This document shows positions 25,571 to 46,742 of a stretch of 64,000 nt of DNA, piece by piece. The notes below the pieces were generated by a model that did no database searches, was not told where the DNA came from, and saw only the letters and a program-made list of their open reading frames with translations. The DNA is from Podarcis gaigeae. Taxonomy: Eukaryota. The translations under genes and the position numbers were made by a program. The stretch is taken from the NCBI GenBank assembly GCA_964106915.2, contig OZ066922.1; one strand, 5' to 3'. Position 1 is the first letter of the stretch. The number at the start of each line of letters is the position of its first letter.

Positions 25571-26160
25571 CATTTGGCTAGAATCTACTCTGTGCCGTAG
25601 GGAGAGAGTAGGCCTATAAATCTCAGCCAGTGAATAAATCAATATGAACAGGGTTCATTTTCTAGTTCACTTGATCTTATAAATAAGACGTTACCTGCGA
25701 TTAGAAAGGAAACAGAACAAACATTCCTTATTTAAAATCCCCTTTGCATGTTTTCACACATTGCCGTTCGGTTTCCCTTGCTGGGTCACAGTGAGATCTG
25801 CATTAGCAGAGTCTTCTGTCATCACCGTTGAATGATAACTTGATTGAATTATGTTGACGTTCTCAAGTGTGAAGGCAGGTGATATGGCCTCATTCTGGCT
25901 TTGTCATTCACCCTTCGCAGCGGCACATCTTGTTTCTCTCTCCCCCCCCCCCCCCGCCCAAATGCCTGCTGCGCACCACCTTACAAGACAGAGACATGAA
26001 TCTTAATGTTGCCAAGCACTTTATGTGCCATTAGTATCTGTTGACAGAAGTTCATGAGAGTGCAATGCTATTTTTGTTGGTCTAGCTGTCGAATTCTCCT
26101 GCATCTCAAATCGAAAGGAAGTAAGTGTTGTTGTTGTTTTTCCTGTTTCCTCCATTTCAG

Positions 26161-26239
26161 CTGTTTCTTGTCTCTGCTCCTTGTGGCCGCCGTGGTTTGG
26201 AAGATTAAGCAGAGCTGCTGGGCGTCGCGGCGGAGAGAG
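26161..26239 (+). CDS. ATRN: Attractin coding exon: CFLSLLLVAAVVWKIKQSCWASRRRE, remainder of TM helix and juxtamembrane region
   Basis: tttcag|C acceptor, GAG|gtgggt donor; 79 nt, phase 2 to 0. Confidence 0.96.
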
Positions 26240-28180
26240 GTGGGTCAAAATGACAGAATCACTGCCTTCTTGCTACGATCTGTGAGCTTTTGTGTCTGCT
26301 TCTTGCATGCGTTCTCCTAAGAGGTGCCAAGTACACAATTGAACCAGAGGTCTTGCTTACTGACCGAGGGCTCTGGAAGCCCTCTTGAAATTCCCTATGT
26401 TCTGCAGAAGGCAGCAGAGAGGCATCTGTCTCCTTTTGAGTTAGCTCGGTGGAAGGCAGAAATGGCGTGCGACGCACATTGCTTTTGCAAAAACCCTGCT
26501 GCAAATGTAAAAAAGAAAAAAAGAGGGTCTGACCCTTCTCCTCTTCCTCCTAGTTCCCTGGCACCATGTGGGGTGTGTGGAAGAGACCAGATATTGTTTC
26601 ATCTTGTTTCATCCTGCATTGGAGGGGGTTGGACTAGATGACCCTTGGATCCCCTTCCAATTCTGTGATTCTGTTTGCAGGATTTGGGGGCAGCCAGGAA
26701 GCAGCATGGCTCCCTTCTCTCTGCTCCCCCAAGCCAGCATTAATGCACCACAGTCCATGGCAACCTGCTCTTGCGCCTCACCTGGAAGCCCCAGCTGGTG
26801 CAGAATGCAATGGCTGGACTACTGATGGGAGCAGAGGTCCAGCAACTTGCTAAAATATCTGCGCTGGCTGCTCATATACTAATGGGCCTGGCTGAAGGTT
26901 ACTGCACTGATATACATAGCCCTGAACAACTTGGACCCAGTATACTTTTACGGACTACCTGAACCCTTACCTGAGACCCTATAATCCCATATTAATCCCT
27001 GAAATCATTTGGAGGAGAACAGATGTTCCACATGTTACAGAACCCTCATTGGCCTCAACTGGAGGTTAGGTCCTGCTGTGAAATACATGTCCAATAGATA
27101 TTTAGTAGGCACCCTCGCTTTTGACTTTCAAATGTCTCCTGAACACTTTTTCTTCTCCTCAATGTGACAGCCCGTCTCTTCTGTTGTTATTTGCTTTGTT
27201 CTTGATGGTGCTTTGTGCCTTGTCATTCTTCACCACCCCGATCTTTTATGATGTGCTAATATTTAGAAATACTAAAAATACAGATCCTTGCCTTCCCTGA
27301 GGTCCCTCAGAAAGTAAGATGGAGCCCTCCCCCTCCCAGGGCTCTGTGCATGCCAGAAGACTTCAGGGTAAGTTTATTCAGCAGACCCACTGAAATTGAT
27401 GAACATGTCTTGGATAGGCCCAGTTATTTCAGTGGGTCTGCTGTAAGTAAAAATTAGCTGAATGCCACCAAGAGATTCAAATAAGAGGCAAGAGGAGTAG
27501 TGGTTTCTCATAAAGAATGTTAATAATGGTATTTCAGCAGTGAGGCAAGCAATACAATTGTTATAGGCCCAAGAGATGTCATTTTGTTTTCCATAAGTAG
27601 TTTGAAAAGGCCCACGCATACACCTTATTGAGCAAACTATTCTTTCCTGAGCTTGACTACCTTTCCCTATCTAGTCCATCTAACATATATTGACATGAGC
27701 AGTGACATTTACTCTGGAGCTTGAGTGTTTAAAATATGCAAGTCCTTCTTGCACGGACATATATTTCCTCCTAGGAGTTGTACATTTGTGTGCTTATGTC
27801 ATCTGCTCTGTCCTGCTCCAAAGGCTTGCATGCAACCATGCCCATCCTTAATCAGGAACCTAACTTTGAAAATTCAGAGACCTCAACAGGTTTGTGCCCA
27901 TTCTTTGGGTATTTTTAAGTATAGTATGGAGGACTTAATTGTGAAATAAATTGGCTGAATTTGACAGTGTCAACCTATACCTTAGATGTTCCTATTCAAA
28001 ACACTTTGGCCAAATGGTGGGAAGGAAGGTTGCAAACATTTTTAGATTACCCGTTATCGTGAATGGGCAACACAGAGGTGTGTGTGTATATATATATATA
28101 TGTATGCTTTCGTAGATTTTCACGGGTACAGGAATGCAGGTTTTGGTGTCCTCGGGTGTCTTCCCGTGTAAAAGTTGGGG

Positions 28181-28229
28181 TGTCTAGGCGACGTTTCGAC
28201 GAGGTCTCACTCGTCATCTTCAGGCTGGT
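28181..28229 (-). ncRNA. Minimal hammerhead ribozyme motif (antisense copy in left arm)
   Basis: Reverse complement of 29352-29400. Confidence 0.75.
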
Positions 28230-29351
28230 GCTTTCGGCTTCTTGTTACTGGAACAGAGCGGGATCTCAATGTTTGAGTTCCTATAAATACTGTAGAGGGG
28301 GTGTGGTGTCTAGCCTCCAATGTTCTGGGCAGAGAGGAAGTTCCCAGGCTAGTGTGCCTTTTCTTCTTTTGTTCCTTAATTACTTGAGAGATACCTTGAG
28401 TGATTTCTTGAGTGATATCCTGAGTACCACTTAGGTGGGTCATTAGGTGTGGATTAGTTGCTAAAGTCTTTGTGTCTTGACCTCTTGAACTTTGTGAAGA
28501 GTTTTCCTGAGAAGATGGCTGTATTGCACTTAGTTGTGCTTTGGCTTGGCTTCGTGTATAGGGGCGAGCTGTGGTTTTGTGGCTTGTGTCAGCCAGATCT
28601 GTGTAGGGATTGCAGGGGGGTGCAGCATCCGGAGGTGCCACCATGGATTGGCTACTGGATGGTGTCAGTAATTCATCTGTGGAGAGGGTCTGGGTTTGGG
28701 TCTGGTGTGGTTGATTGGTGTTGGCGTTCTGTGTGCCTCTGGATCTGGTGTCAGTTTTTGTGGAGAGGGCTAATTTCCAGACATCCCGCTTGCCAGACAT
28801 CTGGAAATTAGCCCTCTCCACAAAAACTGACACCAGATCCAGAGGCACACAGAACGCCAACACCAATCAACCACACCAGACCCAAACCCAGACCCTCTCC
28901 ACAGATGAATTACTGACACCATCCAGTAGCCAATCCATGGTGGCACCTCCGGATGCTGCACCCCCCTGCAATCCCTACACAGATCTGGCTGACACAAGCC
29001 ACAAAACCACAGCTCGCCCCTATACACGAAGCCAAGCCAAAGCACAACTAAGTGCAATACAGCCATCTTCTCAGGAAAACTCTTCACAAAGTTCAAGAGG
29101 TCAAGACACAAAGACTTTAGCAACTAATCCACACCTAATGACCCACCTAAGTGGTACTCAGGATATCACTCAAGAAATCACTCAAGGTATCTCTCAAGTA
29201 ATTAAGGAACAAAAGAAGAAAAGGCACACTAGCCTGGGAACTTCCTCTCTGCCCAGAACATTGGAGGCTAGACACCACACCCCCTCTACAGTATTTATAG
29301 GAACTCAAACATTGAGATCCCGCTCTGTTCCAGTAACAAGAAGCCGAAAGC

Positions 29352-29400
29352 ACCAGCCTGAAGATGACGAGTGAGACCTCGTCGAAACGTCGCCTAGACA
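29352..29400 (+). ncRNA. Minimal type I hammerhead ribozyme motif (PLE type)
   Basis: CTGAAGA (29358-29364), T, stem II GACGAG-tgagac-CTCGTC, GAAA (29384-29387), palindromic ACGT helix III, GTC cleavage triplet ending 29391; stem I is weak (2 clear base pairs). Confidence 0.75.
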
Positions 29401-30944
29401 CCCCAACTTTTACACGGGAAGACACCCGAGGACACCAAAACCTGCATATATATGTATGTATATATACACACACAGAGAGAGTTGTTTGGAACCTGAGCAC
29501 AGAGTGATTCAAAACAGATACAATTTTTAAAGACGATAAACAGACATACAAAGCAGAATTTAAAGTTGAGGCGGGCCCGTACTATACCACATCCAAAGGC
29601 AGAATACCCCTGAATAGTTGCACTTGCTAGGGGGCCAACAGAGAAGTGCTATAGCATTCAAGGCCTGTTTGTGGGTTTCTCAGAGGCATTCTATGGACCA
29701 CTGTGGGAAATGGGATGATGGGCCAGATAGGTTTTTGGTCTGATGCAGCAGGGCACCAGCAGCAGGAGACAGACTTTGGGGATAAATGGCCATTGTTTTT
29801 CTCTTTCCCATCTTGACAAGAGTATAAAAAGCAAAGTGAAGGCTTCCTGGAGTTTTTCCTAAATAAAATGTTAATCAGGGTTTATGTTGGATGTAGTCTG
29901 AGAAATACCGCATTCTGCCTGGAGCCAAGTGAGGCATTTAATGATGGCTTAAATGGAAAATGTCACTGGTGTGAAGTTATCCTCTGGGCATACTTTTTTT
30001 TTGAAAGTTGCAGAGAGGATCAGCTGGTATCTTATCTTTCTCACAGTTAGGTTTCTCATACTTGGTTTGCACGCTTTAATTTCAAGTGATAGACAACTTG
30101 TCTGATTTCTAACAAACTGTCCTAAAACTTTATACGGAAGGGATCCTCATAACTTAATAGTGTTGAAGAGTTGCTGTCCAGTGGCGACTTCTTTCTGACC
30201 CGAGTTGTGTATCAGGTCACCTGCTGTCCCTGCTCAACCCCAAAATGATTACTGAGGTCATAACTGCTTCTATGGCTGAATTCAGTTAATTCCTTTCCCA
30301 TCTCCCTGCCTATTGAGATCAAGCAGACTTCACTGTGCTCTTTTTGGTGCCTGGCAAAAACATTCCTATTTAGATAAGCCTACCCAGATGCTTAGAAAGT
30401 ATTTTATATTTTGTATGTTTTAAAGCATGTTTACGAATTTTTCTCAATTTTATTGTTTTATCTTTTTTCAATCCGCTTTGAGGTTTGTTTTTTGCCATCA
30501 AGCAGAGTAGAAATTTTGTGTAATAAATAACAAGTAAATCTAAGAAGCCCCCTATATTGTTGCTGGTATCCTAGGAGAGGGATACATATATGGAAGATAG
30601 GTCAGTGACCCATTTGGGGTCCCTATGACCTAACAGGGAAAGTAGAAATTCACTTTTGCTGGTTTTGGAAGCAACAGAGCTTGCCCAGAACTCTGGAGTG
30701 TTGAAGGACTGTGTGATAGGAATGTTGAGTAAGGTTGTTGAGGCTTGTGCTATTTCTAACAGCTTGAAGAATACTGCAGAAAAATATAGAATGTTATGCT
30801 TTTTTGGGGGGGGGATATTGTTAAAACATTATTTATAGTTGCAATAATTTCTTGTACCTGGCCAGTAGAACATGATGCAAAACACTGAGAGCAGAAGATT
30901 TTGCTCACTCTCAGGTTAGCTGGGACAACTCCATCTGCAGATCA

Positions 30945-31050
30945 TGGGGCTCTTAATCTGAAGGTTGTGGGTTTGAGCCCCACACTGGGCAAAATATTCC
31001 TGTATTGCAGGGGTTTGGACTAGATGACGCTTGTGGTCCCTGCCAGCTCT
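30945..31050 (+). mobile_element. tRNA-Lys/CR1 SINE copy, degenerate
   Basis: CTCTTAATCTG..GGGTTTGAGCCCCAC..GGACTAGATGAC. Confidence 0.65.
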
Positions 31051-31192
31051 GTGGCAACCAGTGTTATGACCATGCAATCCTGCTTTCCTCCTCTGATGCA
31101 GAGGACTCTAGCTGTGGTCCTAGCAGGGCCACAGTCTCCCATGTTCTTCAGGAATCTGCAAGTGCTTAAGCAGCCAGGGTCACGTTAAAGTC

Positions 31193-31331
31193 CAGCCTTT
31201 CTCAACCTGTGGGTCCCCAGATGTTGTTGAACTACAACTCCCCATCACCCCTAGCTAGCAAGGCCAGAGCTCAGGGGTGATGGGAGTTGTAGTCCTACAA
31301 CATCTGGGGACCCACAGGTTGAGAACAGCTG
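31193..31331. mobile_element. Palindromic hAT-type MITE (ACTACAACTCCC family)
   Basis: Near-perfect foldback CAGCCTTTCTCAACCTGTGGGTCCCCAGATG...; related copies at ~54605-54720 and 59975-60240. Confidence 0.85.
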
Positions 31332-31423
31332 CAAAAAGCTTCTCACACTCTTGACACGGAAGGTGGAGCTAGCAACTGAGAAAGAACTGCAGCTCCTATT
31401 TAAGGCTCGCTCGGAAGATGACT

Positions 31424-31683
31424 CAGATCGTGAAGCTGAGGCTCCAAGACTTTGGCCACCTCATGAGAAGAGAAGACTCCCTGGAAAAGACCCTGATGTT
31501 GGGAAAGATGGAGGGCACAAGGAGAAGGGGCGACAGAGGACGAGATGGTTGGACAGTGATCTCGAAGCTACCAGCATGAGTTTGACCAAACTGCGGGAGG
31601 CAGGGGAAGACAGGAGTGCCTGGCGTGCTCTGGTCCAGGGGGTCACGAAGAGTCGGACACGACTAAAGGACTAAACAACAGCA
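31424..31683 (+). mobile_element. BovB LINE 3' fragment
   Basis: Same 3' end; 10-bp TSD GAAGATGACT (31414-31423 and 31684-31693). Confidence 0.9.
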
Positions 31684-33478
31684 GAAGATGACTGCTGCTG
31701 AAGCAACATCTAAGCTCTGCTCTTAATGGAGTCTCCAGCCTGAGTCCTGCAGGGAGCTCTCCAAGGTGCCATTAAAATCCATTCTCCATTTCCATACTAC
31801 TCAGGCCATTGCTCAAAAGAGAACAACCAAGAGCATCTGCCCAATGAGTGTAAAGCACATTTGTTTCAATGTTTCCTCCACAAATTAAAAACCAAGCCAA
31901 TCCTGAAACCTAATATATCCAATGTAACTCTCTACTTAACCTAGCCCGGATACGGTGGTGATGGGGAGCATTTATTCATAACTGAGTGAGAGTAGGATAT
32001 TGTAAAGCATTTGGCAGGGGTTTAGACCTATCAGTATATTATCTGAAGTAACATTTGGGCAACTTGGCAAGGCGGCATTAGAGTCTGCGTGACAGTGATC
32101 TACTAAAGGGAAGTGAGTGGTTCGTAAATTCGTACCCTTTTCTCTCTCTCCACTGAGCACCGTAACGAAATGGCTTTCAGGCGCTGTATTTTGCTGGTGG
32201 AGGAAATGGAAACAAGAAAGAATGCTTGTTCGAGGCTCAGAATGATACTGAAAGACAGATAAAATTGCTCCTTTTATTACATGACTTTTGGAAAGTGATA
32301 GGAAACATGAAGGCGGTGGTGGAGAATAATGCTTGAAATAAAACCGCAATGGCATCATAAAGAGTACATCTGTCTACAACCAAGTCTTAATATGTATTTT
32401 TTGCTCCCTTTCAGCCTCCTTTCCCTTTTTTTACATGCCTTTGGGATTCCTGTAGTCAAGCTGTGAGCCACAATCCAAGGCTTAAACCTCGGATTGTGAA
32501 TCAGCTTGGGCAGGGTACGATGGAGGGCATTTATCCAAGTCTCAATCGATAGTCTGAAAAGAGAGAGATTTGCTTTCATTCATTTTAAATATTTATCTGC
32601 CACCTTCCAATTAATAATCTAAAATGGTTTATGAGTAAAAATTGACACAACTGAAACATATACTGAAATATATTTATATATCTCTGAGATTTGGCACTTC
32701 CCCTTTTTTCTGGGTTATGTTTGAGAGAAAAGGCTAAATATAGTGTTTGTTTTAATTATGGCACTAATGTCCATTATTGCTTGGTTTCAGATGCAACATT
32801 TAGGAACTTACAATGCTAACTTTCAATACCAGCAGGTGTCATGGTCCCTGATTTCTGTCTTGGTTCAGACTTTAATCCAAGTCAGAAAGAAACTTTGGTG
32901 GCAAGGAAGGTTAAGAACCATTATTAGCCCTACTGCCTTACTTTCCCCCTTCAAAATGAAGCTTCCTCTTTGGTAGCCCCAGGGTATGCTGTGAGATGTG
33001 TCTTTATACCATCCATTGCGTGCTTTTTGACAGTTGGCCAAGACGCACCATTTTACCGAACCCTTTTTCTTGAGTGGATGTCTTTCCTTTTCCTGCATTT
33101 CTGTTCTGTGCTGCTGTTTTGGTTGTTTGCTGTTGGTTCTCTGGTTTTATCTTACAATTTTAATGTAAGTTGCACTGGTTCCAATTGTGACATTTTTGTA
33201 ACCCTTCCCCAGGACCATTTGGTGAAGTCAAATGGTCAATATGCTAAATATGGGGAACTTGAGGCAACTTCTGAAAAGAGGATCCCTGCATCTGTTGGTT
33301 CTCCTTGTAGCCTGTAATGTCAACACTCACAGTCCCTCTGCCCCCATGAGCAGGGGCTTCTCTGCTTCTGCAGCAGAGAAACCCGCACAGTGATGTCATC
33401 ATGCCACATTGTGAAGTCAGGGTGGTGGTTCAGGTTTTGGACTGTGACTCGGAGGACCAGGGTTCAAATATAATAATA

Positions 33479-34077
33479 CAGTGGACGCTCGGGTTGCGAA
33501 CATGATCCATGCTAGATGCATGTTCGCAACCCGCAGCAGTGCGTCTGCTTATGCGCGGGTTGCGACTCGGCACTTCTGTGCATGTGCAAAGCGTGATTTA
33601 GCACTTCTGCGCATGCGCGACCGACGAAACCCGGACGTAACCTGTTCCGGTACTTCCGGGTTTTGGCGTGTCTGTAAAACTGGATGCGGGTGGCGCTGTG
33701 GGTTAAACCACAGAGCCTAGGCCTTGCCGATCAGAAGGTTGGCGGTTCGAATTCCCGTGACGGGGTGAGCTCCCGTTGCTCGGTCCCTGCTCCTGCCAAC
33801 CTAGCAGTTCGAAAGCACATCAAAGTGCAAGTAGATAAATAGATACCGCTCCAGTGGGAAGGTATATGGCGTTTCCATGCGCTGCTCTGGTTCGCCAGAA
33901 GCAGCTTAGTCATGCTGGCCACATGACCCGGAAGCTGTATGCCGGCTCCCTTGGCCAATAAAGCGAGAGGAGCGCCGCAACCCCAGAGTCTGTCAAGACT
34001 GGACCTAATGGTTGGGGGTCCGTTTACCTTTTAACCTGAAAGGCAACCTGAAGCATCTGTGACCCGAGGTATGACTG
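33479..34077. mobile_element. Tc1/mariner MITE containing a Sauria SINE
   Basis: TA|CAGTGGACGCTCGGGT...ACCCGAGGTATGACTG|TA. Confidence 0.8.
33682..34032 (+). mobile_element. Sauria SINE nested in a Tc1/mariner MITE
   Basis: Head GGATGCGGGTGGCGCTGTGG, tail TTTACCTTT. Confidence 0.9.
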
Positions 34078-34079
34078 TA

Positions 34080-34510
34080 ACAACAACAACAACAACTTAT
34101 TTATACCCTGCCCATCTGGCTGGGTTTCCCCAGCCACTCTGGGCGGCTCCCAACAGAATATTAAAAACACAGTACAGCATTCAACATTAAAAACTTCCCT
34201 AAACAGGGCCGCCTTCAGTTGTCTTTTAAAAGTAAAATAGTTGCTTATTGCCTTAACATCTGCTGGGAGGGCGTTCCACAGGGCAGGTGCCGCTACCAAG
34301 AAGGCCCTCTGCCTGGTTCCCTGTAACCTCACTTCTCGCAGCGATGGAACCACCAGAAGGCCCTCGGCGCTGCACCTCAGTGTCCGGGCTGAACGATGGG
34401 GGTGGAGACACTCCTTCAGGTATACAAGACTGAGGCTGTTTAGGGCTTTCAAGGTCAGCACCAACACTCTGAGTTGTGCTTACTGGGTTGTGCATACTGG
34501 GAGCCAATGA
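34080..34510 (-). mobile_element. L2-clade LINE 3' fragment
   Basis: Homologous to 57665-58240; RAFLVAAPALWNALP. Confidence 0.88.
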
Positions 34511-36951
34511 AGGTCCCCGCTTACCCATGAAGCTCATCTGGGATGACCTCTCTCAGTCTAGTCTACCTTACAGGGTTCTTGCGAGGATAAAATTGGGAGG
34601 AGGAGAGCTATGTACAGCCACCTGGAGCTCCTTGGAGGGAAAGTGGAACAGTAGGTCCGCAGCTTAGATGGGAGTTACATTCTGGACATCGTTCCTGAAA
34701 GCCGAGATTGTGCATAGTCAAAACCCAATTGGGTTCAGTGGCGAGTGGGATTTCCCAAGTCATTTTTCCTGGACCCTGCCCCCTTTTTAATATTTTTTGC
34801 CGTGCACGTAAAGCTTATTGCGCACAAGTTAAATGCACTTAAGCTGCAGGCTTGCTGTATACAAGTAATTAAAAAATAAATAAATATCAGTCAACCTGAC
34901 AGAGAGACATCAAAAACATTGACGTCTGGTCTTTGGGGCGGGGAGTGGATAGTGGCGTGCATGAGGAACGCGGAGACCTATGGAGCAGGATGGAAGCAAA
35001 CTCTGGCTCATGGTTTAATCAGGCCTCAATGTTCTTCTTAAGGGCAAAAATGTCTCTGTCGACTCGGATGCTGAGATGTTGGAAGCAGAAATGCTGACGA
35101 GCTGAGACAAGAGTGCTGCAGTCTGACGAAGATACGAGTTTGGTTCTTCCATGTGGCTAGCAGCCCTGAGCAGCCTTCGTGAATTTCTCTGGACTCTGAC
35201 AAGGCTCAAGAACGTGCCATTAATCACCTAAAACTGGTGGAGGATTGTTTCTGCAGGTGCCTCTCTGCTGGCCTGTCCTTTTACCAAAGCGAGACTGAAT
35301 TAACAGTGAGAAAAGAAGGCAGAAAAATTGGGGTGCCAAGGGGTGGGGATGGAAAAAGACTGCAGCTCCATGCTGGAGCTCACTTTTTCTTCTCGCTTAA
35401 TTTCATTGCTTAGCTCCCGTTTTGCTATCATATATTTTTGCTTGTTCTAGGCCTCTTGTGGCCCAGTTTTCCCTTTGCTTTTCTCTTTGCGAGAAGAAGG
35501 GGTTTCCTGCTTTGAGCGTCTCCCTCCTTCCACTTTTGAAGTGTTTTGTGGCAATTTTTTCTGTGAATCTGCCTTTTGGGGCACAGGCTTTGGTTCATGA
35601 ACAATTCTGAACAGATTTGGCTTCTGTAGTTTTTATACATAAATAATTATTGTTTTATTTTTGCTTACTCCCTGGTGAGGTTTGAACCACACTATTTTAT
35701 TTTTTGATCTTTTTCTCTTCCATGCATTGGGTCCTGGATTAATCTCTCTGCCCCTCCTGGAATCCGCAGAAACTTGTTCCTTTGAACCCCTACCTGGAAA
35801 CACAGATTTAGCATCTCCTCTTCTTCTGCTTAACTTTTAGGATTAATTTGCTATATAAGCAAAGCTTTTAACTGCTATTGACTAGTGGGCGATCTGGAAG
35901 GTAAATCAAAGTAGAGATTAAGTAAATAAAAATTACTTCTAAGTTTTGCTTGCTGTAATTGTTGACTGCAACTGAACAGAAATATTGGAAGTATCAGATA
36001 AAATGACAAAGTAAAGTTTTAAGAGTGAAATCTTTAGATTGAATAGCATTAAGCTAGAAGGCAGAATATTCTGTTTTGTTACCCATGTAATCATTACATT
36101 CTATTTTTACCTGCATACACTGTTCCTTACAGTTGTGTATAATAAGTCTTTTTCCACTTTGATATTCTTTGTGGATTATGCTTGCATTTTTCATCATGCA
36201 AAATGGTTTTCTGCTTGGGTATTTTAAATAAATTTTCTATATTGATTTCAGCTTCTGATCTTTCCCATGAGGTCCTCAGTTTCAATATCTAGTTCTGTCT
36301 TTGGCTTTTGAAGGGAAAAGGAGTCTTGCTTTTAACAAAACTGAACTTCGGTTTTGGTAATTTGGGTTCCTGGGCCAGGACTGTTGAGGTCCCCCTAGCC
36401 CACCAGTCAAATATGACATGGTGGCTGACGAGATTGATTCAGGGGTCACATCCAGACTAAGAAGCGTTTGCTTGGCCATCCTTGCCCAGAAGAACCACAA
36501 GCTTGGGCTTTTGACTTGCCCTATCAACGAACAGTTTGTTCCTGGAAAAAATGGTCCGTAATGGGTGCGGTGGAATTCATTCTCTTGGAGAGTTATAATA
36601 GCCTTTTTGTAATTACATTGAACATTTCCCAGCTTTTCAGCTGATGGGTACCCCTTGTTATCGTATTCTTCCCTGCTTTTAATTTGCATTTACAGCAGAC
36701 CTCGCTTACGTTTTTTAAAGCCTCAAACCTTCAGCTTATTCTGCATACTAAAGGTCATCCATTGTGTCTTCCTTGTTTGGGGGCCTGGTTCTGATAAAAT
36801 ATGTATTTAATCCATGGCTGATGAAGATACATTTGTATTGTCTTTTCACATGACATCAATTCCCAGTAGCTTTGTCCTGTGTTTGTAATAATTTGAAGTG
36901 TGAAAATGCCTGTTGAACAGCATTTGAGTTCTGTTTCTCCCCCCCCCCTAA

Positions 36952-36960
36952 ACACACACA

Positions 36961-36994
<34 letters not shown>
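36952..36994. repeat. (CA)n microsatellite
   Basis: Direct reading, one CGCG interruption. Confidence 0.95.
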
Positions 36995-36996
<2 letters not shown>

Positions 36997-37324
36997 CTTG
37001 CAAAGTTGGTTACAAACCTAATTAGCTAACATTAATGCAATCGCTGCCCCAGGGAACTGGAAACTTAATTTTCGGCTATGATGAAAATACTGCCAGATAA
37101 TTATTTATTCGTTGTCTTACATGGTGGCTTGCAATTGTGGCTAAGTGTTACTGCCCAATTTATTTTCAAAAGAACATGGCTCTCCTCTCTTGTGATAGTT
37201 TAAGCATTTATGTTGCCTCGGTGAATAACTGTTCTGCTCCCCAGTGTTTATCTCCCAGGCAGTCTTGACAGAGCTTCATGAAACCCAGCAGGTGTGGTCC
37301 GTGAACTAAGGGGGTACATGTCCA

Positions 37325-37600
37325 TGTTTTCTGATGAAACAGAGTTTTTCAGGGTCGTAGAAGCAAAAAAGGATTTTGACGAGCTTCAAAAGCACATCTC
37401 CCAAATTGGGAGAATGGGCAATACACTGTCAAATGCAGTTCAGTGTAAGCTAGCGCAAAGTGTTGAACATTGAGGCAGGATACACCCCCCCCCAAAAAGG
37501 AACCCCTCCTATGGATACTAATGCAACCTGACATGGTAGTAACTGATCAGTAAAGAGAACTTGGGTTCGTGGTGATTACAGCAATGAAAATGTTTTCCCA
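37325..37600 (+). mobile_element. Decayed CR1 RT fragment
   Basis: Degenerate W..QMQF..KC / KELGFVV motifs. Confidence 0.5.
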
Positions 37601-37815
37601 GTTATGTTAAATCATAGCTTATTTTATGTGACTGGGGTGCATGCTGCTCAGAAGTGGCTGCTTCACATCTCCTGTTGAAAACCCCTTGCCACGAACGGGG
37701 CAAAACAACACAGAGAATGGATTTGTGTTAGGTAACCAGTGCCTGTGGTTGGTTTTCCCCAAAGGACCCATGATGAAGAGGCAAAGGCTTGATCTTGGTT
37801 TCTGGATAATGGCTT

Positions 37816-38166
37816 GTAAGGTAAAGGGACCCCTGACCATTAGGTCCAGTTGTGGCCGACTCTGGGGTTGCGGCGCTCATCTCACTTTATTGGCCGAGGG
37901 AGCTGGCATACAGCTTCCAGGTCATGTGACCAGCATGACTAAGCCACTTCTGGCGAACCAGAGCAGCGCTCGGAAATGCTGTTTACCTTCCCACCGGAGT
38001 GGTACCTATTTATCTACTTGCACTTTGACGTGCTTTCGAACTGCTAGGTGGGCAGGAGCAGGGACCGAGCAACGGGAGCTCACCCCATCGCGGGGATTCG
38101 AACCGCCGACCTTCTGATCGGCAAGTCCTAGGTTTGTGGTTTAACCCACAGCGCCACCCGCATCCC
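37816..38166 (-). mobile_element. Sauria SINE, full length
   Basis: Head and tail as above; TSD ATGGCTTGTA. Confidence 0.9.
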
Positions 38167-41100
38167 TATCATGGCTTGTAGTCAGATAGTAATTCTGCAG
38201 GCCATGCAGAGCTGGGTCTAAGCAGTATGGAAGGCTGATGTGCCTTTTCTTCTAGTGGTCTTAGTGATGCAGGTGGTAGTTGGACGGATGAGGGCTCCCC
38301 CCTGGTCTTGTTTGTTCAGGCAACAACTGATTTGTGCGGGGGTTATGTTCCTGACTCCTGCGTGCATTGGTTTAGTGTGCATAACCTCGCATGGACCCAT
38401 TTTGCCCTTTCCCCAGCCCGTTCCTTCCCCCTTTCCACCCCCGATTAGTTTTTTTTGGGGGGGAGGGTGTCAGTTACCACTGATAATGTATTTTATAATA
38501 GCTCTCCTTAAGGCTTCAACAAAGACAGAAGCTGGTTCAATCCAGACATCACAACGAACCATAGCTTTCACTAATCATAGTTTAGAACTATAGTCCAACC
38601 ATAGTTTAAGCCATGGTTTGTATCACTATACAGGCAAATCATGATTTATTGCACCATGTGTGGTTTTAATACAACATCAGCTGAGCACCTTTTTCTCCAG
38701 AGATTCAGGAGTGGCCATAATTATGGTTTGTCAGTTTAGACATCACTTCAATCCATGGTTTGCAAACCCAGTTCATGCATGGCTTCTGATTCTAGTTTGT
38801 TGGCTGGTCACGAACCACGGCTTATGATTTCAGACTTCAAAACAAACCCAAGTTAAATTTCTCTAACCAAGGTTTGGTGCGATGTCTGAAGAAAGCCAAT
38901 TGTCTGTGTTCTTTATTCCAGTTCCCGTGCCCTTAAGCCCCAGATTTCATTACTCTCGTTCTCATAGCTATAAAGAATACTAGTGAAGGTTTAAAATAAA
39001 AATTCAAAAATGTCTGCTCCCTCTTCCAACATTTCAATGGTTTTGATATCACCACCATCCTGTCTGTCTTAGATTACTGTTGCTTGTTACTGTCATACCT
39101 CATCAAAGGTTTCTATTGTCATGAACAAAAGAATTCCATAACAATTGTGTGTTGTGCCTGGAGGTTGAATGGAAGATCCTGCATTTTGGTCTGAGGAGTA
39201 GCGTAGTATCTTTTTGAGGGAGAATAACATTAATGACTGAAAACTTCGCTTGTTTCAGAATTCCATTTTGGCAGGCCGCCATTTCATGAATGTAAAGATA
39301 AAACATTAAAATTGATTTATCCTTGATTGCATAATATTTCATTCTTGTTACATTTCTTCAGTAAAGATGATGTATTGCTCAGTCGGGTTTTCTTAAACCA
39401 AGGTTCACTGGCAGCAATTGAGATCTGCAATGTTACCAGGGTGTGTGTGTGTTTTGGGTGGAGGAGTGTTGCTTCCTTTAAAAATAGATGTTCCTCTTGA
39501 AGTTAAGCAAGTCCCAAGGCTGATACGTGCCAAAGCTATTTCTTTGTAAAACAGTTTCCAGAAGGGGTGGTGTTACGGATTCATGGTAGCATAGAATCAT
39601 AGAATTGTCAAGAAGTACACAATAATGGGACAAGTCTATAACTTACTTCTTGATAATGGTGTGTGTGTGTGTGTGTACTAGTTGTGTTCCTTTTGCATAT
39701 CATTCTCATAGCTGGATGACCTTTTAATTTTGATTTCCTATAGCACGAGTGACCAACTTTCACCCTTCCCAAGTGTTGTTTAACTAGGGGTAGATATATA
39801 ATGATCTTTTTAAAAAAAAAAAGTTAAGAAGAAAAGCTATATAGCTCTCAATACAATTTCCCATTGAATCCTGTACAGCACCTGCTAGTGTCACATTTTT
39901 ATAACACATTTATAACGTTATAACTTACCAGTATAGATTAGTCCTATGACTTCTGTGATCCCCACCTCTGCGCCGACAGCAGGGATGGGTAGAAGGAGAA
40001 GCAGGGTCTGCTAGTAGACCACTGGGTAAAGTAGATCGGAAGGATTTCTGACTTCCAGTTGTGCAGTGACAAGCAAAATGCATTTCCCTCTAAATTGGAT
40101 TGCTGATAAAGAACACCTTGGGGGTGCGGGGAGACCAGGAACTGATTTGTGTGCGAAAGAACTTGTGAATATGGTTCTGATGCTGATCACAAACTCTGAG
40201 CTGGAAAACGCTGTTATTTATTAACCTACTCAGGAGTAACTCTAGATTAATGGGTCATTTCAGTAGGACCTACAGAGAACACATAAGTTATGCAGTCTTT
40301 CCCTAGAGACCTTTAAATGCCTGAATATTGGTTTCAAAACACGATTAGATCTTGCTCTTGGAAAGCTCAGCCTGGCTTTCATGAGGCTGTCTCTGGTCTC
40401 CCATCGATGGCTAGGTAAGGTCCACACTTGTTTTATTTCATCTGTGCTGCAGTACAGGGAACTCTTGCACCTAGCATTTTACTGCTGTGAGATTCCTTTG
40501 CCCCACTGTTTTTATCCTTGAATCTTGTTCTTGTGCTCCATTGAGGTGAACAATCAGTGTCTGGGCTTGTGAATGGTTCATCACTGTCCATTCTGATCAA
40601 GGGCCTCCAGCATGAATTGAGCAATTTTTTTTAAAAAAAACAACAACCAACACATTTGCCAAACATGTATTGTCTCATGATTTGAAGGCTTCAAGAGCTA
40701 TTGCAAGTGCAAGATTCATGTAGCTGTACCCACATAACCTCCTGGGTGGGCTCAGTGATTGTGTGAATATTCAACTCCTTGCCGAGTTAATGAGTTCTGC
40801 TTGATTCTTATTTTGGACATATTTATCAGGACAGCTTGCTCTGGTTTTATTTTACAGCCATTAGACAAAGCGTTTTATGGTAGCTGAAGGGCACAATTAC
40901 TGCAGCAGCAACCCTGCAATCTGTTTCACACTTTCTTCACTTTGCAATCTGCCGAGCATCTTTTTAAGTAGTAGTCTGGAACAGGAGGTCTGGCACATGA
41001 GTTTGGGTTCACTTGAGTGGCACTTGTACGGCAGGTTGTCAGTAGAGTATAGGTCAAAAATCCCTGTGGGCAAACTGCCTCTCTTTATACTATGTAAAGC

Positions 41101-41347
41101 TCTGTTGGCATGATCGTTGCATCGTTCAAGGCAGTCTCCAGAATAGGTCCCAGGTCTCACACCTGGACGTTGTTCGCTAACTCTGGGCCAGGGCTGGACT
41201 GGTGGTTCCCAAACTGTGGTCCCTGAGCTTAATTCAGGTGGTTTGGGGCATGTCTGTGAAGAACACTTTGACTTCTGTACAGTCCTGTTAAGTTCAGATT
41301 GTAATACAATAACATACAATATAAGAATTAAAAGAAGCAAAAAGATA

Positions 41348-41598
41348 CAGTCATACCTTGGTTGTCGAATGCCCTGGAACTTGTACATTTTGACTCCCAG
41401 ATAATAAAAAACCGAGAGTGAGTGTTCCTGTTTTCGAACAATTTTCGGAAGCTGAAGGTCCAGTGTGGTTTCCGCAGCTTCCGATTGGCTGCAGGGCGCT
41501 CCTGTGGCCAATCGGAAGCCACGTCTTGGTTTTCGAACAGTTCTGGAAGTCGAATGGACTCCTGAAACGCATTCTGTTCGAGAACCAAGGTATGACTG
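41348..41598. mobile_element. Tc1/mariner MITE, apparently inside a hAT remnant (~41200-41730)
   Basis: 16-bp TIR CAGTCATACCTTGGTT, TA TSD. Confidence 0.85.
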
Positions 41599-41974
41599 TA
41601 CTGTCAAAATAATTCAGCATCCAGGATTCACAATTGCTACAAACAGGCGGCGGCAGGGAATATTAAGTGGTCCACCAAGACCCTCAGCAATTTCCAAGTG
41701 GTCCATGGGGAAAAAAATGGGGAACCACTGATACACTCTGGATTCTGCTTCTGGGAAGGATTTCAGGCTAGGAAAGACCTCTGCCTGAAGCCTTGGAGCT
41801 TTCCAGTTGCTGTTCTGGGCTAGTTCCTAGTCCTGTAAGCTTGACTTTGATAAGACCCCCCTGTTCTTATAAAATGCTAAGTGTAGCAAGGGGCTTAAAG
41901 AGAGGGGTTCTCAGAGACTGTTCTCCACCTCCAAAACTCCCTTCATCCTCCAAGCCTTTTCTGGAAGCAAAGTA

Positions 41975-42216
41975 CAGTGGAACCTCGGTTCTCGAACATC
42001 TCTGTTGACGAACAATTTGGAATCCGAACACCGAAAACCCAGAAGTATTTGCTTCCGTTTTTGAACGCACCTAGGATCTCGAACGGCTTTCCAAGGTGCG
42101 TTTCTCCACGTTCTCAATGGGTTTTGCCAACCGTCCTTTGATTCTTGAGTTTCAAACATTTCTGAAGTTGAACAGCCTTCCGGAACGGATTACGTTCAAA
42201 AACTGAGGTTCCACTG
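41975..42216. mobile_element. Tc1/mariner MITE
   Basis: TIR CAGTGGAACCTC, TA TSD. Confidence 0.85.
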
Positions 42217-42754
42217 TATATATAATGGCTGTCTTTCAGTGTATTTTTAGGACACTTTTCATTTCAGTAATTTTACATAGTTCATCCGCACCATGGGCCC
42301 AAGTAATGAAGGGAGATTTCAAAATGATGCTTAAAATAGTGGGAAGAGCTCTGTGGCCTTTTGCAGCTGGGCGTTTCCAGCTGAGAGCCTGACCTCTTTT
42401 CAATACAGCTAGCTAATTCGGCATGGTTACCCAATAGCACAAGCCCTGCCCAGGCTTCGCAAATACCTCTTGAGTCTGACCTCACTGAACTAGCAGTAGG
42501 GGAAGTACTGAACCACCCGTACCAGTCTTGTTTCACCCAGGGCAATTGCACATGATGGCAGGCTCTCACAATTCTACATGAAAAAACTACATTGTTGGTA
42601 TCTGTCTGTCTCAAGAGACAATGGAGTGCACCACCGGAGGTGAAGTCAAACCACTGCATTAGCAACACTGAAGTGTCCTCCATGGGGCACAGGACTGGGC
42701 AGTGTGGATGGAGGTCCTGAGCTGCCCAGATGGCAAGACCCCACTCTGGCCTCA

Positions 42755-43091
42755 CTGATATAATAGCCATGTTCAAATATATAAAAGGATGTCACATAGA
42801 GGAGGGAGAAAGGTTGTTTTCTGCTGCTCCAGAGAAGCGGACACGGAGCAATGGTTCCAAACTACAAGAAAGAAGATTCCACCTAAACATTAGGAAGAAC
42901 TTCCTGACAGTAAGAGCTGTTTGACAGTGGAATTTGCTGCCAAGGAGTGTGGTGGAGTCTCCTTCTTTGGAGGTCTTTAAGCAGAGGCTTGACAACTATA
43001 TGTCAGGAGTGCTCTGATGGTGTTTCCTGCTTGGCAGGGGGTTGGACTCGATGGCCCTTGTGGTCTCTTCCAACTCTATGATTCTATGATG
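42755..43091 (+). mobile_element. CR1 LINE 3' fragment
   Basis: FKYIKGCH..RTRSNGSKLQERRFHLNIRKNFLTVRAV; (ATTCTATG)n tail. Confidence 0.9.
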
Positions 43092-44795
43092 TGGTTTGAA
43101 AGAAAACAGAGCAATACGCTTGGCACCAGCTTGGCTGCAGGAGTTGCGTACAACTGACTAAGGGACTCCAGATTTGTGTAGGGTCTACTCCTTAGCCTTC
43201 GCTTCTCCCAAAGATGACCTCCAAGGCAGTGCAAGTTTAGGGTTAGAGTTGACAAAACCCATCTGCTCTTCACCTCCCTCTGCAGCGTGTTGTGCAGAAA
43301 CCACTTTCTTGACCATTGGACCCATTCCCAGGGTGTGGCTGCTGTCACAGCGTCTAGGAGCCACAGGTGAGAGCTGAGTGCAGGGTAGGGATTCAGGGTG
43401 GACAAGCTACCCCAGAAGGAGCATGACATATCCCCCACCAGAGGAGCTACTGTCCCCTAACACCCCCCACACTACAAAAGTAGTTCTAAACAGTAAATAA
43501 AACATCAAAAGCAACCAAACTGAACAATTTCCACACAACTCACAGTAAAGACACAAAAACAACAATAACGGCAACCCCTCCCCCCCAGACAAAACCCTCA
43601 AATACCCCAGCAACTGGTGGGAAGTTGGGAAAATAGACGCCCCTAAGCAATACAGACTGTAGATCAATCCACTCAGCATAATTTCTATATCCTTTGCTCT
43701 TTTGGTTCAATTCTTTTTCTGGACCTTGGAGGAGTTGGGAGGCCCTTGAGTTATTTACAGCTGCTGTTAATCTCAAGCAGACATATAGTCCTCCGTACTG
43801 TGGCGTACATGAATCTGATGGATTTGGGAGACCTGCTGACCTTACATGGCTGATGCTGTGGGTTTCGCTCTGTTCTGCTGTTGTTTCATTATAATTTGTC
43901 GGTGTGCAGTATCAGCCCTGCAGCTGGCGGGGGAAGTGGAGATACGTTAACCTCCCACTCAATGACAGGGTAAAACATTCGTGCAACTTAACATTTAAAT
44001 TTTGTGGCCTGCTTTTTAAATTATTTCTAAAGCATCCCCCAAATTCACAAAATGCAACCGTTTAATTATAAAACCGTGCAATTAAAATTAAAACCACAAA
44101 ACTCATGGAGCCGGGTGGAGAATATAGGTGGAAGCAGGCCAGAGAAGTAGGGAACAGGTTGGAAAACAATTTGAAAATGCTGAACTGAACAAGAACAAAG
44201 CAGAAACCAGCCATGTGATGGGGAAAGGCGCTTGGCTATCTGGCTCTGCAGATTTCCTTACGCCAGCTAGTTTCTTACATGCTCATAATAGGGTTTTTTT
44301 GGAGGGTGTGTGTGATGGATCAGTGAAGTTGCTGTGGAAACAAGCATGCAATGAACACCTTCTCTACCGTCATCCCAAAGCAGAAGAGTTATGAGACCTA
44401 CCTTACATTGGACAAATTTGTGATGCTTTAGTACATATATTTGCTCATTTAGTTTTTCTGGGTGTATTGTTACTTGTGAGTTGCCTAGAGAGAACTTCTT
44501 TCTATACAATCAAGGGATTCAAGGTTGACTCAGCCCTCATCTCCTTTCTGAGTTGTAAGTCACTTAACCAAGCCTGTTTTCTCTCAATGAAACATTGAGT
44601 TTTTTCTTTGTGAAAGGACCACTTTGTTTCCTGTTCACACGACTGTGAGTCTCAATATGGCAGGAAGGTGTGTGGTGAGAGCCCTGGTCGCAGCAGAGGT
44701 TTGCAACCCTTGCTGAACTATCCATCACCTCCAACTCAGCCCTCGCATCTAGTATATATTTTGGAAAGGAACAGGTTTTCATCTGCTTGGATGTA

Positions 44796-45019
44796 CAGTG
44801 ATACCTTGGGTTACATAAACCTCAGGTTACATACGCTTCAGGTTACAGACTCTGCTAACCCAGAAATAGTACCTCGGGTTAGGAACTTTGCTTCAGGATG
44901 AGAACAGAAATCGTGCTCCGGTGGCAGGCGGCAGCAGGAGGCCCCATTAGCTAAAGTGGTGCTTCAGGTTAAGAATGGATCTCCGGAATGAATTAAGTAC
45001 TTAACCCAAGGTACCACTG
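44796..45019. mobile_element. Tc1/mariner MITE
   Basis: TIR CAGTG.TACCTTGGGTTA, TA TSD. Confidence 0.85.
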
Positions 45020-45424
45020 TAATCAGATTCCATTTTGAATCAAGATGGCAGAAGAACGGACCTTCCAAAACTTCCCTTATTCTAACCCCTGGTTTCAAAA
45101 CTGAACTGATACTTTGGTTTCTTCTGATTTCTGGGCATTGCCAGGTATGTGGCTGTTAGCATCCAGACGAATCTTCGAATGAAGGCAACAAAGGGATGCT
45201 TATCTCACTGTGCCTTGTGCATCGGTCCTAATAGGCGATGCCTCTTGAGCAGCCTGCCCAGCTCAGGTTGTAAATGTATAACACAAATGGACCATGCTGT
45301 GAACTTGTTTTGAATTCACTACCACTCCCATGAGTCTACCTGCCCTAACTCAGGACCAGAGTCATGGTGGCAGCAGGTCTGATCCTGCACCCCATGTCTG
45401 CACCCCATGTTTTGCCACATCCTG

Positions 45425-45427
<3 letters not shown>

Positions 45428-45473
<46 letters not shown>
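45428..45473. repeat. (TA)n microsatellite, PLE target
   Basis: About 23 perfect units abutting the PLE tail. Confidence 0.95.
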
Positions 45474-45475
<2 letters not shown>

Positions 45476-45585
45476 TTTCGTAGATTTTCACGGGTACAGG
45501 AATGCAGGTTTTGGTGTCCTCGGGTGTCTTCCCGTGTAAAAGTTGGGGTGTCTAGGCGACGTTTCGACGAGGTCTCACTCGTCAT

Positions 45586-45632
45586 CAGCCTGAAGATGAC
45601 GAGTGAGACCTCGTCGAAACGTCGCCTAGACA
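45586..45632 (+). ncRNA. Minimal hammerhead ribozyme motif (fragment B)
   Basis: CTGAAGA 45590-45596, stem II, GAAA 45616-45619, CGTC; 5' flank truncated to CAGC. Confidence 0.7.
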
Positions 45633-45732
45633 CCCCAACTTTTACACGGGAAGACACCCGAGGACACCAAAACCTGCATATATATATGCAGGTTTTGGTG
45701 TCCTCGGGTGTCTTCCCGTGTAAAAGTTGGGG

Positions 45733-45781
45733 TGTCTAGGCGACGTTTCGACGAGGTCTCACTCGTCATCTTCAGGCTGGT
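45733..45781 (-). ncRNA. Minimal hammerhead ribozyme motif (fragment C)
   Basis: Intact core on the minus strand (TCTTCAG at 45769-45775 on +). Confidence 0.7.
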
Positions 45782-46328
45782 GCTTTCGGCTTCTTGTTAC
45801 TGGAACAGAGCGGGATCTCAATGTTTGAGTTCCTATAAATACTGTAGAGGGGGTGTGGTGTCTAGCCTCCAATGTTCTGGGCAGAGAGGAAGTTCCCAGG
45901 CTAGTGTGCCTTTTCTTCTTTTGTTCCTTAATTACTTGAGAGATACCTTGAGTGATTTCTTGAGTGATATCCTGAGTACCACTTAGGTGGGTCATTAGGT
46001 GTGGATTAGTTGCTAAAGTCTTTGTGTCTTGACCTCTTGAACTTTGTGAAGAGTTTTCCTGAGAAGATGGCTGTATTGCACTTAGTTGTGCTTTGGCTTG
46101 GCTTCGTGTATAGGGGCGAGCTGTGGTTTTGTGGCTTGTGTCAGCCAGATCTGTGTAGGGATTGCAGGGGGGTGCAGCATCCGGAGGTGCCACCATGGAT
46201 TGGCTACTGGATGGTGTCAGTAATTCATCTGTGGAGAGGGTCTGGGTTTGGGTCTGGTGTGGTTGATTGGTGTTGGCGTTCTGTGTGCCTCTGGATCTGG
46301 TGTCAGTTTTTGTGGGGAGGGCTAAAGC

Positions 46329-46377
46329 ACCAGCCTGAAGATGACGAGTGAGACCTCGTCAAAACGTCGCCTAGACA
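46329..46377 (+). pseudogene. Hammerhead motif with core mutation GAAA to AAAA (fragment D)
   Basis: CTGAAGA 46335-46341, stem II intact, but 46361 is A where all other copies have the G of GAAA. Confidence 0.7.
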
Positions 46378-46634
46378 CCCCAACTTTTACACGGGAAGAC
46401 ACCCGAGGACACCAAAACCTGCATATATATATATATATATATAAATAAATATATCTATATATCTCAGTATTGCTTGAACTTTCTTTGGCTGCTAGTCTTG
46501 AATTATTCTCTTTCTGGGCACAGAGTGCCAGCCGCCTCTCTTGTTTCCTTGCAACTGTGTGAAAATCCCATGAACGCCCGTGACCCTTGAATATGTCGGG
46601 CTGCCGTATTAACATCTCTCCATTTATTCAACAG

Positions 46635-46742
46635 CAACTGCTCCGAGAGATGCAGCAGATGGCCAGTCGCCCTTTTGCATCCATCAACGTTGCCTTAGAA
46701 ACGGACGAGGAGCCACCCGACCTCGTTGGAGGCAGCGTAAAG
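46635..46742 (+). CDS. ATRN: Attractin coding exon: QLLREMQQMASRPFASINVALETDEEPPDLVGGSVK (MASRPF motif)
   Basis: caacag|CAA acceptor, AAG|gtgagg donor; 108 nt; MASRPF motif shared by ATRN/ATRNL1/MEGF8. Confidence 0.97.

What the first reader, a model, noticed from the sequence alone, without database searches (positions are those of the whole stretch)
29352..29400. Minimal hammerhead ribozyme in sense orientation within the ATRN pre-mRNA
Seen: CUGAAGA-U-[GACGAG ugagac CUCGUC]-GAAA-CGUC, with helix III reduced to the palindrome ACGU. Known: this is the architecture of minimal type I hammerheads in PLEs, proposed to cleave as dimers. The window has four intact cores (two on +, two on -), one mutated and one truncated. 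Inference: the two intact sense copies (29358 and 45590) lie in the same intron and could in principle supply each other's dimer partner. Caveat: stem I has only about 2 clear base pairs, so activity may be low or absent.
Basis: partly seen in the sequence, partly recalled or inferred. Interest (0 to 1): 0.7.

Follow-up and report, generated by a model that had tools for sequence, protein, structure and literature searches.

The report
Jumping-gene hammerhead locked in a palindrome
A real minimal hammerhead ribozyme motif, carried by a likely recent Penelope-type retrotransposon, sits in an intron of the attractin gene, but inside a perfect 648-base inverted repeat that is predicted to lock it in double-stranded RNA, so it likely does not cut the gene's RNA.

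Summary
The motif is real: an intact minimal type I hammerhead core at 29358-29391, one of six copies (0 in 100 shuffles), in sense orientation in the ATRN intron 26240-46634. It is the pLTR/ORF-start of a Penelope/Poseidon retroelement (relatives carry RT + GIY-YIG) and has the layout of the tested green-anole element PAc. Stem II probability falls from about 0.99 alone to about 1e-21 in context; the proposed dimer gains about 1 kcal/mol against -84 for pairing with its own antisense. The family appears to have burst in one species, is nearly absent from a close relative, and another individual likely lacks this insertion. All six arms span the cut site, so they were copied from uncut RNA. 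Likely fate: dsRNA, A-to-I edited, as published for lizard Penelope. Known kind, no sign of host function; cleavage itself was not testable.

The parts
29358..29391 (+). Minimal type I hammerhead core (C3 at 29358, G12 at 29384, predicted cut after C17 at 29391)
   Evidence: sequence
29366..29383 (+). Stem II, 6 bp with 6-nt loop, closed by G10.1-C11.1 after an unpaired U
   Evidence: pair probability 0.98-1.0 in the isolated 71-nt and 150-nt folds, about 1e-21 in the whole insertion
29356..29393 (+). Stem I limits: 2 bp (29356-57 with 29392-93); palindrome ACGU at 29387-29390 in place of helix III
   Evidence: stem I probability 0.017 even in isolation
29364..29374 (+). ATG (29364-66) that likely starts the element's ORF, overlapping A9 of the core, and TGA (29372-74) in loop II that ends the upstream ORF tail in another frame
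   Evidence: homolog P0003 starts with the same 10 residues; same ATG position described for PAc
28781..29447 (+). Sense arm of insertion 1: last residues of the GIY-YIG domain, 190-aa low-complexity ORF tail/pLTR, hammerhead, short 3' end at +84 from the ATG
   Evidence: 196 of 197 aa identical to P0001 (GIY-YIG), 79% over 145 aa to P0002 (RT + GIY-YIG); ends
28104..28781 (-). Antisense arm of insertion 1, intact core 28223-28190, long 3' end at +114 with a 30-nt tail (28104-28133); 648 nt are 100% complementary to the sense arm
28096..28103 (.). Left copy of a candidate 8-bp target-site duplication in a TA/TG microsatellite (right copy 29448-29455)
   Evidence: identical 8-mers; low complexity, so weak
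29292..29299 (+). TATA-like box about 30 nt upstream of 29322, candidate internal pLTR promoter
   Evidence: sequence; 6 RNA reads of a related species have loose ends before 29322; promoter role inferred only
45472..45586 (-). Insertion 2, pair A left arm: antisense, long tail, 5'-truncated at G8 of the core
45586..45679 (+). Insertion 2, pair A right arm: intact sense core 45590-45623 with only 4 native bases upstream; perfect complements on both sides (85 nt upstream, about 100 nt downstream)
45686..46325 (-). Insertion 2, pair B left arm: 640 nt antisense, intact core 45775-45742, 1 difference from insertion 1
46324..46424 (+). Insertion 2, pair B right arm: sense core 46335-46368 with G12>A at 46361; ends 210 nt upstream of the next ATRN exon
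26240..46634 (+). ATRN intron (GT..AG, phase 0) between exons 26161-26239 and 46635-46742 that holds both insertions

Best explanation
The motif is the hammerhead of a Penelope/Poseidon-type retroelement that likely inserted recently into an AT-rich microsatellite of the ATRN intron as a head-to-head inverted pair, and in the ATRN pre-mRNA it is predicted to be trapped in a 648-bp duplex with its own antisense copy, so it likely does not cut. Shown: the core, the three inverted pairs with 3' ends pointing outward, the two end types (+84 and +114 from the ATG), the link to an RT + GIY-YIG protein, the host intron. Predicted by folding: loss of stem II in context for all three sense copies. Inferred: the pairs arise because the element's protein nicks and primes both target strands at its two internal start sites and the products join at their 5' ends through 1-2 nt overlaps; the motif is kept because it matters to the element (protein-assisted cleavage, plus ORF start), not to the host; the duplex is A-to-I edited and spliced out with the intron.
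For: Inverted arms 648 nt/100% and 85 nt/100%. Stem II probability 0.99 alone, 1e-21 to 1e-19 in context for 29358, 45590 and 46335, also when the fold stops at 29395. Core with own antisense -84 kcal/mol, dimer -0.9 net. ORF tail matches P0001 and P0002. Layout equals PAc: ORF starts at stem II, two RT start sites bounding the tail, both strands extended, no cleavage without protein, first 172 nt of ORF needed for protein activity (PMC11167929); all three sense arms stop at +84. Inverted 5'-truncated copy with a tail at one end is typical PLE structure (PMC8557442; PMC3846280). 6 of 6 arms extend 5' of the cut site and none starts at 29392. Summed contig depth on the arm 446,000-1,040,000 vs 68-75 on unique flank in X1, 103,000-441,000 vs 9-13 in X3, 0-5 vs 5-14 in X4 of organism B; an X3 contig of 2148 nt leaves the flank and runs on 1237 letters without lying on the element. 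Penelope is massively hyper-edited in lizard (PMC5625713); RNA of a related species shows 74 A>G/T>C places vs 18 G>A/C>T.
Against: Folding is equilibrium and protein-free; co-transcriptional kinetics, hnRNP coating or editing could leave a window. No RNA of this locus was laid: X23 is another species and its reads come from other copies; without a matching DNA run the A>G/T>C excess cannot be called editing, and the counts include a second repeat and species differences. The letters of the X3 run-on were not shown, so the empty allele is likely, not shown. Summed contig depth is not a copy number. Stem II covariation could not be tested.
Confidence: 0.86

Rival explanations
1. The 29358 core escapes the trap in RNAs that start inside the sense arm (TATA-like box at 29292) or is captured co-transcriptionally by the element's protein, and then cuts after 29391 as a protein-assisted ribozyme.
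For: Stem II forms at 0.98-0.99 when the antisense core is absent. PAc's hammerhead cleaves with protein. The core looks constrained in the element lineage: 0 of the 40 shown difference rows (of 129) fall in 29313-29439 against 20 in 28817-29312 (about 5 expected), and P0003 matches 10 of 10 core-coded residues vs 15 of 27 after (p 0.015). 6 reads with loose ends before 29322.
Against: The sense arm stops at +84, while PAc protein needed the first 172 nt of the ORF. No pile-up of RNA starts or ends in X23 (table 6; insensitive library), as for PAc. An internally started RNA is not the ATRN pre-mRNA. Conservation may reflect the double coding frame.
Confidence: 0.08
2. One reading: cores at 29358 and 45590 pair across 16 kb into a double hammerhead and cut the ATRN pre-mRNA.
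For: Both cores are intact, identical over 40 nt, sense and in one intron. Minimal hammerheads showed low activity as dimers or trimers in vitro and none as monomers (PMC4209133).
Against: Net gain about 0.9 kcal/mol, and the double-hammerhead fold (-18.1) is not the two-strand minimum (-21.5). Both copies have perfect local complements. 16,232 nt apart. The published dimers were adjacent tandem constructs.
Confidence: 0.02
3. The perfect palindrome is an assembly artefact and the real allele has a single free sense arm.
For: 100% identity over 648 nt, both arms share a T at 28817/28764 that P0001, P0002, P0082, insertion 2 and runs X3, X4, X23 lack; PLE inverted structures trouble assemblies. 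No read or contig across the centre was examined.
Against: The arms differ at both ends in element-specific ways (30-nt tail on one, 19 extra 5' bases on the other), a candidate 8-bp duplication flanks the whole, and three such pairs occur; the geometry is the published one.
Confidence: 0.03
4. A host-adopted intronic ribozyme like the conserved amniote intronic hammerheads.
For: Sense, intronic, intact core; such ribozymes are cited in PMC7229834.
Against: No Rfam hammerhead hit; family nearly absent from organism B whose flank aligns with 8 other letters and 4 gaps over 635; likely empty in another individual; one sense copy already carries G12>A.
Confidence: 0.01

Closest known systems
PAc (Poseidon_Ac) of Anolis carolinensis, Frangieh et al. 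2024, PMC11167929
   Same: ORF starts at stem II with C3 and G8 before the ATG; cut about 25-28 nt into the ORF; two 3' end types bounding a 30-nt tail, the long one at +114 (PAc start site 111-118); AT-rich targets; copies made from uncut RNA.
   Different: Here only truncated pLTR-sized or shorter arms, no full ORF in the window; the upstream ORF frame stays open 197 codons up to a stop in loop II; activity untested; the PAc DNA file could not be read, so no sequence identity is given.
Minimal type I hammerheads (min-HHR) of metazoan PLEs, Cervera and De la Pena 2014, PMC4209133
   Same: Core boxes, unpaired base after A9, G10.1-C11.1, long helix II, palindrome instead of helix III, place in the pLTR.
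   Different: Helix I is 2 bp (as in the D. virilis variant) rather than 4-5 bp; copies are head-to-head, not tandem, so no adjacent dimer partner.
Inverted pLTR insertions of endonuclease-bearing PLEs (PMC3846280, PMC8557442)
   Same: Inverted 5'-truncated copy next to the 5' end, tail at one end only, 8-10-bp duplication, microsatellite target.
   Different: Three solo pairs without an ORF body; in two pairs the tailed arm is the shorter one at the 5' side, which needs two separate primings or an antisense template.
Non-LTR retrozymes (PMC7229834; bioRxiv 2026.07.22.740005)
   Same: Type I hammerhead in a non-coding repeat related to PLE pLTRs; vertebrate ones work best as dimers.
   Different: Defined by head-to-tail tandem units; none here.

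Membership tests
Minimal type I hammerhead of PLEs | Core CUGANGA ... GAAA ... UH | tested here: met
Minimal type I hammerhead of PLEs | Unpaired base between 9 and 10.1, G10.1-C11.1 pair, palindromic 15/16 positions | tested here: met
   U29365; G29366-C29383; ACGU 29387-90; features as listed
Minimal type I hammerhead of PLEs | Helix II longer than the canonical 4 bp and stable on its own | tested here: met
   6 bp, probability 0.98-1.0 in isolation; the 103-nt region is not unusually stable overall, z -1.22
Minimal type I hammerhead of PLEs | Helix I (4-5 bp typical, 2 bp in the D. virilis variant) | tested here: inconclusive
   2 bp, probability 0.017
Minimal type I hammerhead of PLEs | Covariation of stem II across family members | tested here: inconclusive
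   window copies identical; no shown difference row in the core (40 of 129 rows); no outside DNA found
Minimal type I hammerhead of PLEs | Self-cleavage (as dimer or with protein) | not testable with these tools
   needs a bench assay
Rfam hammerhead families | Match to a hammerhead covariance model | tested here: not met
   no hammerhead among 21 hits at E<=1 or 2 hits at E<=10; expected for a motif without helix III (inference)
Penelope/Poseidon clade PLE | Single ORF with RT and C-terminal GIY-YIG | tested here: met
   through relatives only: P0002 RVT_1 E 4e-16 and GIY-YIG E 1e-3 (below Pfam's cut-off), P0001 GIY-YIG E 6e-4, both continuous with the window's ORF tail
Penelope/Poseidon clade PLE | No Zn-finger-like Cys motif in the RT-EN linker (present in Neptune and Nematis) | tested here: met
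   one Cys (477) between the RT hit and GIY at 499 in P0002; criterion. No tree was built
Penelope/Poseidon clade PLE | Inverted 5'-truncated copy, 30-40-bp tail at one end, AT-rich target | tested here: met
   3 pairs, tail on 2 of 6 arms, TA repeats at all outer ends
Penelope/Poseidon clade PLE | ATG at stem II begins the RT ORF | tested here: inconclusive
   P0003 begins with the same 10 residues but is a 189-aa piece with no Pfam hit and no link to RT shown
Non-LTR retrozyme | Two or more consecutive head-to-tail units each with a whole hammerhead | tested here: not met
   neighbouring copies alternate in strand; definition
Conserved intronic amniote hammerheads | Orthologous conservation across species | tested here: not met
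   family nearly absent in organism B, likely empty site in X3; no Rfam hit

The most novel reading that the evidence does not exclude
A polymorphic retroelement allele changes attractin output: the sense hammerhead slips its antisense lock (internal pLTR start or help from the element's protein) and cuts ATRN intron RNA only when the element is expressed, or the perfect duplexes, one ending 210 nt before an exon, shift splicing. That would be a presence/absence ribozyme switch in a pigmentation gene (pigment role of attractin recalled, not from a call).
Probability: 0.07. Interest if true: 0.65.

Novelty: new member of a known kind. Interest (0 to 1): 0.2.

Why it matters
As it stands it is an ordinary consequence of a Penelope burst: thousands of such motifs occur in vertebrate genomes and this one shows no sign of host use. 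Its value is as a clean example: the insertion geometry pairs each hammerhead with its own antisense, which would explain why intact sense ribozymes are tolerated in introns and why lizard Penelope RNA is heavily edited; and the unequal arm ends give a genomic test of priming on both target strands, seen so far in vitro. It would matter more only if the allele altered ATRN RNA.

Tried and rejected
Rfam: no hammerhead; the microRNA-type hits at 45631-45734 and 28733-28846 are far below gathering and reflect the palindromes. No whole genome is held, so copy number and the share of paired copies could not be counted. A degenerate core pattern found 0 matches in metagenome, viral and prokaryote collections. 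Earlier findings: none by sequence or words. No RNA holder listed for 46440-47400. PDB and protein-atlas searches with the last exon gave nothing; Pfam found GBD_ATRN in 2 of 8 exon pieces and nothing in the 2 element pieces. Fold-back priming at the centre of insertion 1: a 6-pair register with 3 G-T pairs exists on the minus strand but is not the predicted fold (z -0.15): inconclusive. Purifying selection on the ORF tail: 4 synonymous of 20 differences against 30% expected, p 0.47, no stops: not supported, though the frame is open in only 3 of 20,000 shuffles. The PAc supplements gave no usable text and its sequence file could not be read; they bear on how long PAc's stem I is. One search for twin priming in PLEs returned 1 off-topic review; that is too little to say the idea is not in print.

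Full report
Observation. The stretch 29358-29391 holds the core as described. A 26-nt core pattern matches 6 places at up to 3 mismatches and never in 100 shuffles: four intact cores (29358 +, 45590 +, 28223 -, 45775 -), one with G12>A at 46361 and one that begins at G8. Stem II (6 bp) forms with probability 0.98-1.0 in isolation; stem I (2 bp) only 0.017. Rfam finds no hammerhead.

Host gene. The last coding exon matches proteins named attractin at up to 98% (78 hits among 94 candidates). Anolis and Varanus attractins map to eight exons on the plus strand, with consecutive residues at 26156-26239 and 46629 onward; splice signals put the intron at 26240-46634. Both sense cores are in it. The nearest named relative of the element's protein is from Podarcis muralis, so the host is likely a lizard (inference).

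What the motif belongs to. The frame 28781-29371 is 196 of 197 residues identical to the end of P0001, which carries a GIY-YIG hit, and 79% over 145 residues to P0002, which carries RT and GIY-YIG (the GIY-YIG hits are under Pfam's cut-off). P0002 has no Cys motif in the RT-EN linker, the mark of Penelope/Poseidon as against Neptune and Nematis (PMC8557442, passages). An ATG at 29364 overlaps A9; P0003 starts with the same ten residues. This is the layout of PAc from the green anole, where the ORF begins at stem II, reverse transcription starts at two internal sites bounding a 30-40-bp tail, both target strands are cut and extended, the hammerhead cleaves only with the protein, and uncut RNA is the main template (PMC11167929, parts 1-2 of 4 and passages). 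In the window 4 of 6 arms end at +84 and 2 of 6 at +114, with a 30-nt tail between, all in TA-rich repeats. All 6 arms extend 5' of the cut site.

The context that decides the question. The six arms form three head-to-head pairs with 3' ends outward, joined through 1, 1 and 2 nt of overlap. Insertion 1 is a 648-nt perfect inverted repeat with an 18-nt spacer and a candidate 8-bp duplication. In insertion 2 the 45590 core has a perfect 85-nt complement directly upstream and another of about 100 nt downstream. Such inverted, tail-on-one-end structures are typical of PLEs (PMC3846280, passages). In the ATRN pre-mRNA the antisense arm always comes first. Folding 28087-29470 pairs every core base with the left arm at probability 1.0 and drops stem II to about 1e-21; the 45590 and 46335 cores give 1e-21 to 1e-19. 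A fold that ends at 29395 gives the same; a fold that starts at 28600 and so lacks the antisense core keeps stem II at 0.98-0.99. These are equilibrium predictions without protein.

The dimer idea. The double-hammerhead structure of the two sense cores scores -18.1 kcal/mol against -17.2 for two separate stem-II hairpins, is not the two-strand minimum (-21.5), and competes with -84 and -66 for pairing with the local antisense. Published minimal hammerheads were inactive as monomers and weak as adjacent dimers (PMC4209133, parts 1-2 of 4). The copies are 16,232 nt apart. PAc's protein needed the first 172 nt of the ORF; the sense arms stop at +84. Retrozymes are defined by tandem units (bioRxiv 2026.07.22.740005, parts 1-2 of 5; PMC7229834, passages); there are none here.

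Age and expression. I laid 4 of the 24 listed runs on one arm plus right flank (28781-30900). Summed contig depth on the arm is 446,000-1,040,000 against 68-75 on unique flank in X1 (possibly the window's own sample), 103,000-441,000 against 9-13 in X3 (same species label, other sample), and 0-5 against 5-14 in X4 (organism B, flank with 8 other letters and 4 gaps over 635). The tool warns that this is no copy number, but it points to a burst in organism A. In X1 the flank contig stops 37 letters past the junction; in X3 a 2148-nt contig at depth 9 runs on for 1237 letters that do not lie on the element, which likely is an empty allele (its letters were not shown). RNA reads of another species (X23, about 12% of the run) cover the arm on both strands, show no pile-up of starts or ends, and have 28 A>G and 46 T>C places against 11 G>A and 7 C>T (p 3e-9 against equal odds). 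These counts include a second repeat and species differences, the reads come from other copies, and no matching DNA was laid, so this only hints at editing. It agrees with the report that Penelope is massively hyper-edited in lizard (PMC5625713, passages).

Results that favour a working core in the element. Of 40 shown difference rows (of 129), 20 fall in 28817-29312 and none in 29313-29439, where about 5 would be expected; P0003 keeps 10 of 10 residues coded by the core against 15 of 27 after it (p 0.015). The core is thus likely under constraint in the element's lineage, though it also codes in two frames. An RNA started at the TATA-like box at 29292 would lack the antisense arm and could fold stem II; 6 X23 reads have loose ends before 29322. 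That RNA would not be the ATRN pre-mRNA.

How the pairs likely arise (inferred). In insertion 1 and pair A the tailed arm reaches less far 5' (-564, -1) than its partner (-583, -10). One cDNA folding back cannot supply both the tail and the extra 5' bases, so two primings on opposite target strands, or an antisense template as proposed, are needed. Both arms of insertion 1 share a T that other copies lack, which fits later copying of one arm from the other or one source locus; a fold-back hairpin was not supported by energy.

Verdict. A true minimal PLE hammerhead, new member of a described kind, most likely a silent passenger in the ATRN intron. Interest 0.2.

Noticed in passing
window 29364-29374: The core is coded three ways: the upstream ORF tail (open for 197 codons, 3 of 20,000 shuffles) stops at TGA in loop II, while the next ORF's ATG lies 8 nt earlier in another frame; this could couple translation of tandem units.
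   Followed up: partly
window 28781, 28800, 28808-equivalent (46325): The three long arms are all 5'-truncated within 27 nt, just after the GIY-YIG domain; possibly the 5' edge of a source pLTR or transcript.
   Followed up: no
window 29347-29363 equivalents (46324, 45586): The three short arms are 5'-truncated within 17 nt at the 5' edge of the core, and X23 reads have loose ends before 29355 (10 reads) and 29357 (7 reads); depth rises in bin 29349-29419 in X1, X3 and X23. Possibly a reverse-transcription stall at the ribozyme.
   Followed up: partly
window 46324-46463: Insertion 2 and its TA repeat end about 170-210 nt upstream of the acceptor at 46633-34; any effect on splicing is untested.
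   Followed up: no
window 45586-45590: The junction of pair A creates a false CUGAUGA box on the minus strand (45588-45582) whose G8-A9 would be the first pairs of stem II; not a proper core.
   Followed up: partly
window 31220-31304, 54621-54704, 60002-60184: Hairpin-like repeats hit mir-5408 far below gathering; likely a small palindromic transposon family.
   Followed up: no
window 47535-47592: tRNA-like hit at 29.7 bits (gathering 29) at the head of a repeat also seen near 30939; likely a tRNA-derived SINE.
   Followed up: no
window 16284-16673 / 20904-21293, 33716-34030 / 37818-38132: Other long inverted repeat pairs (390 nt 93%, 315 nt 90%) within ATRN introns, further dsRNA sources.
   Followed up: no
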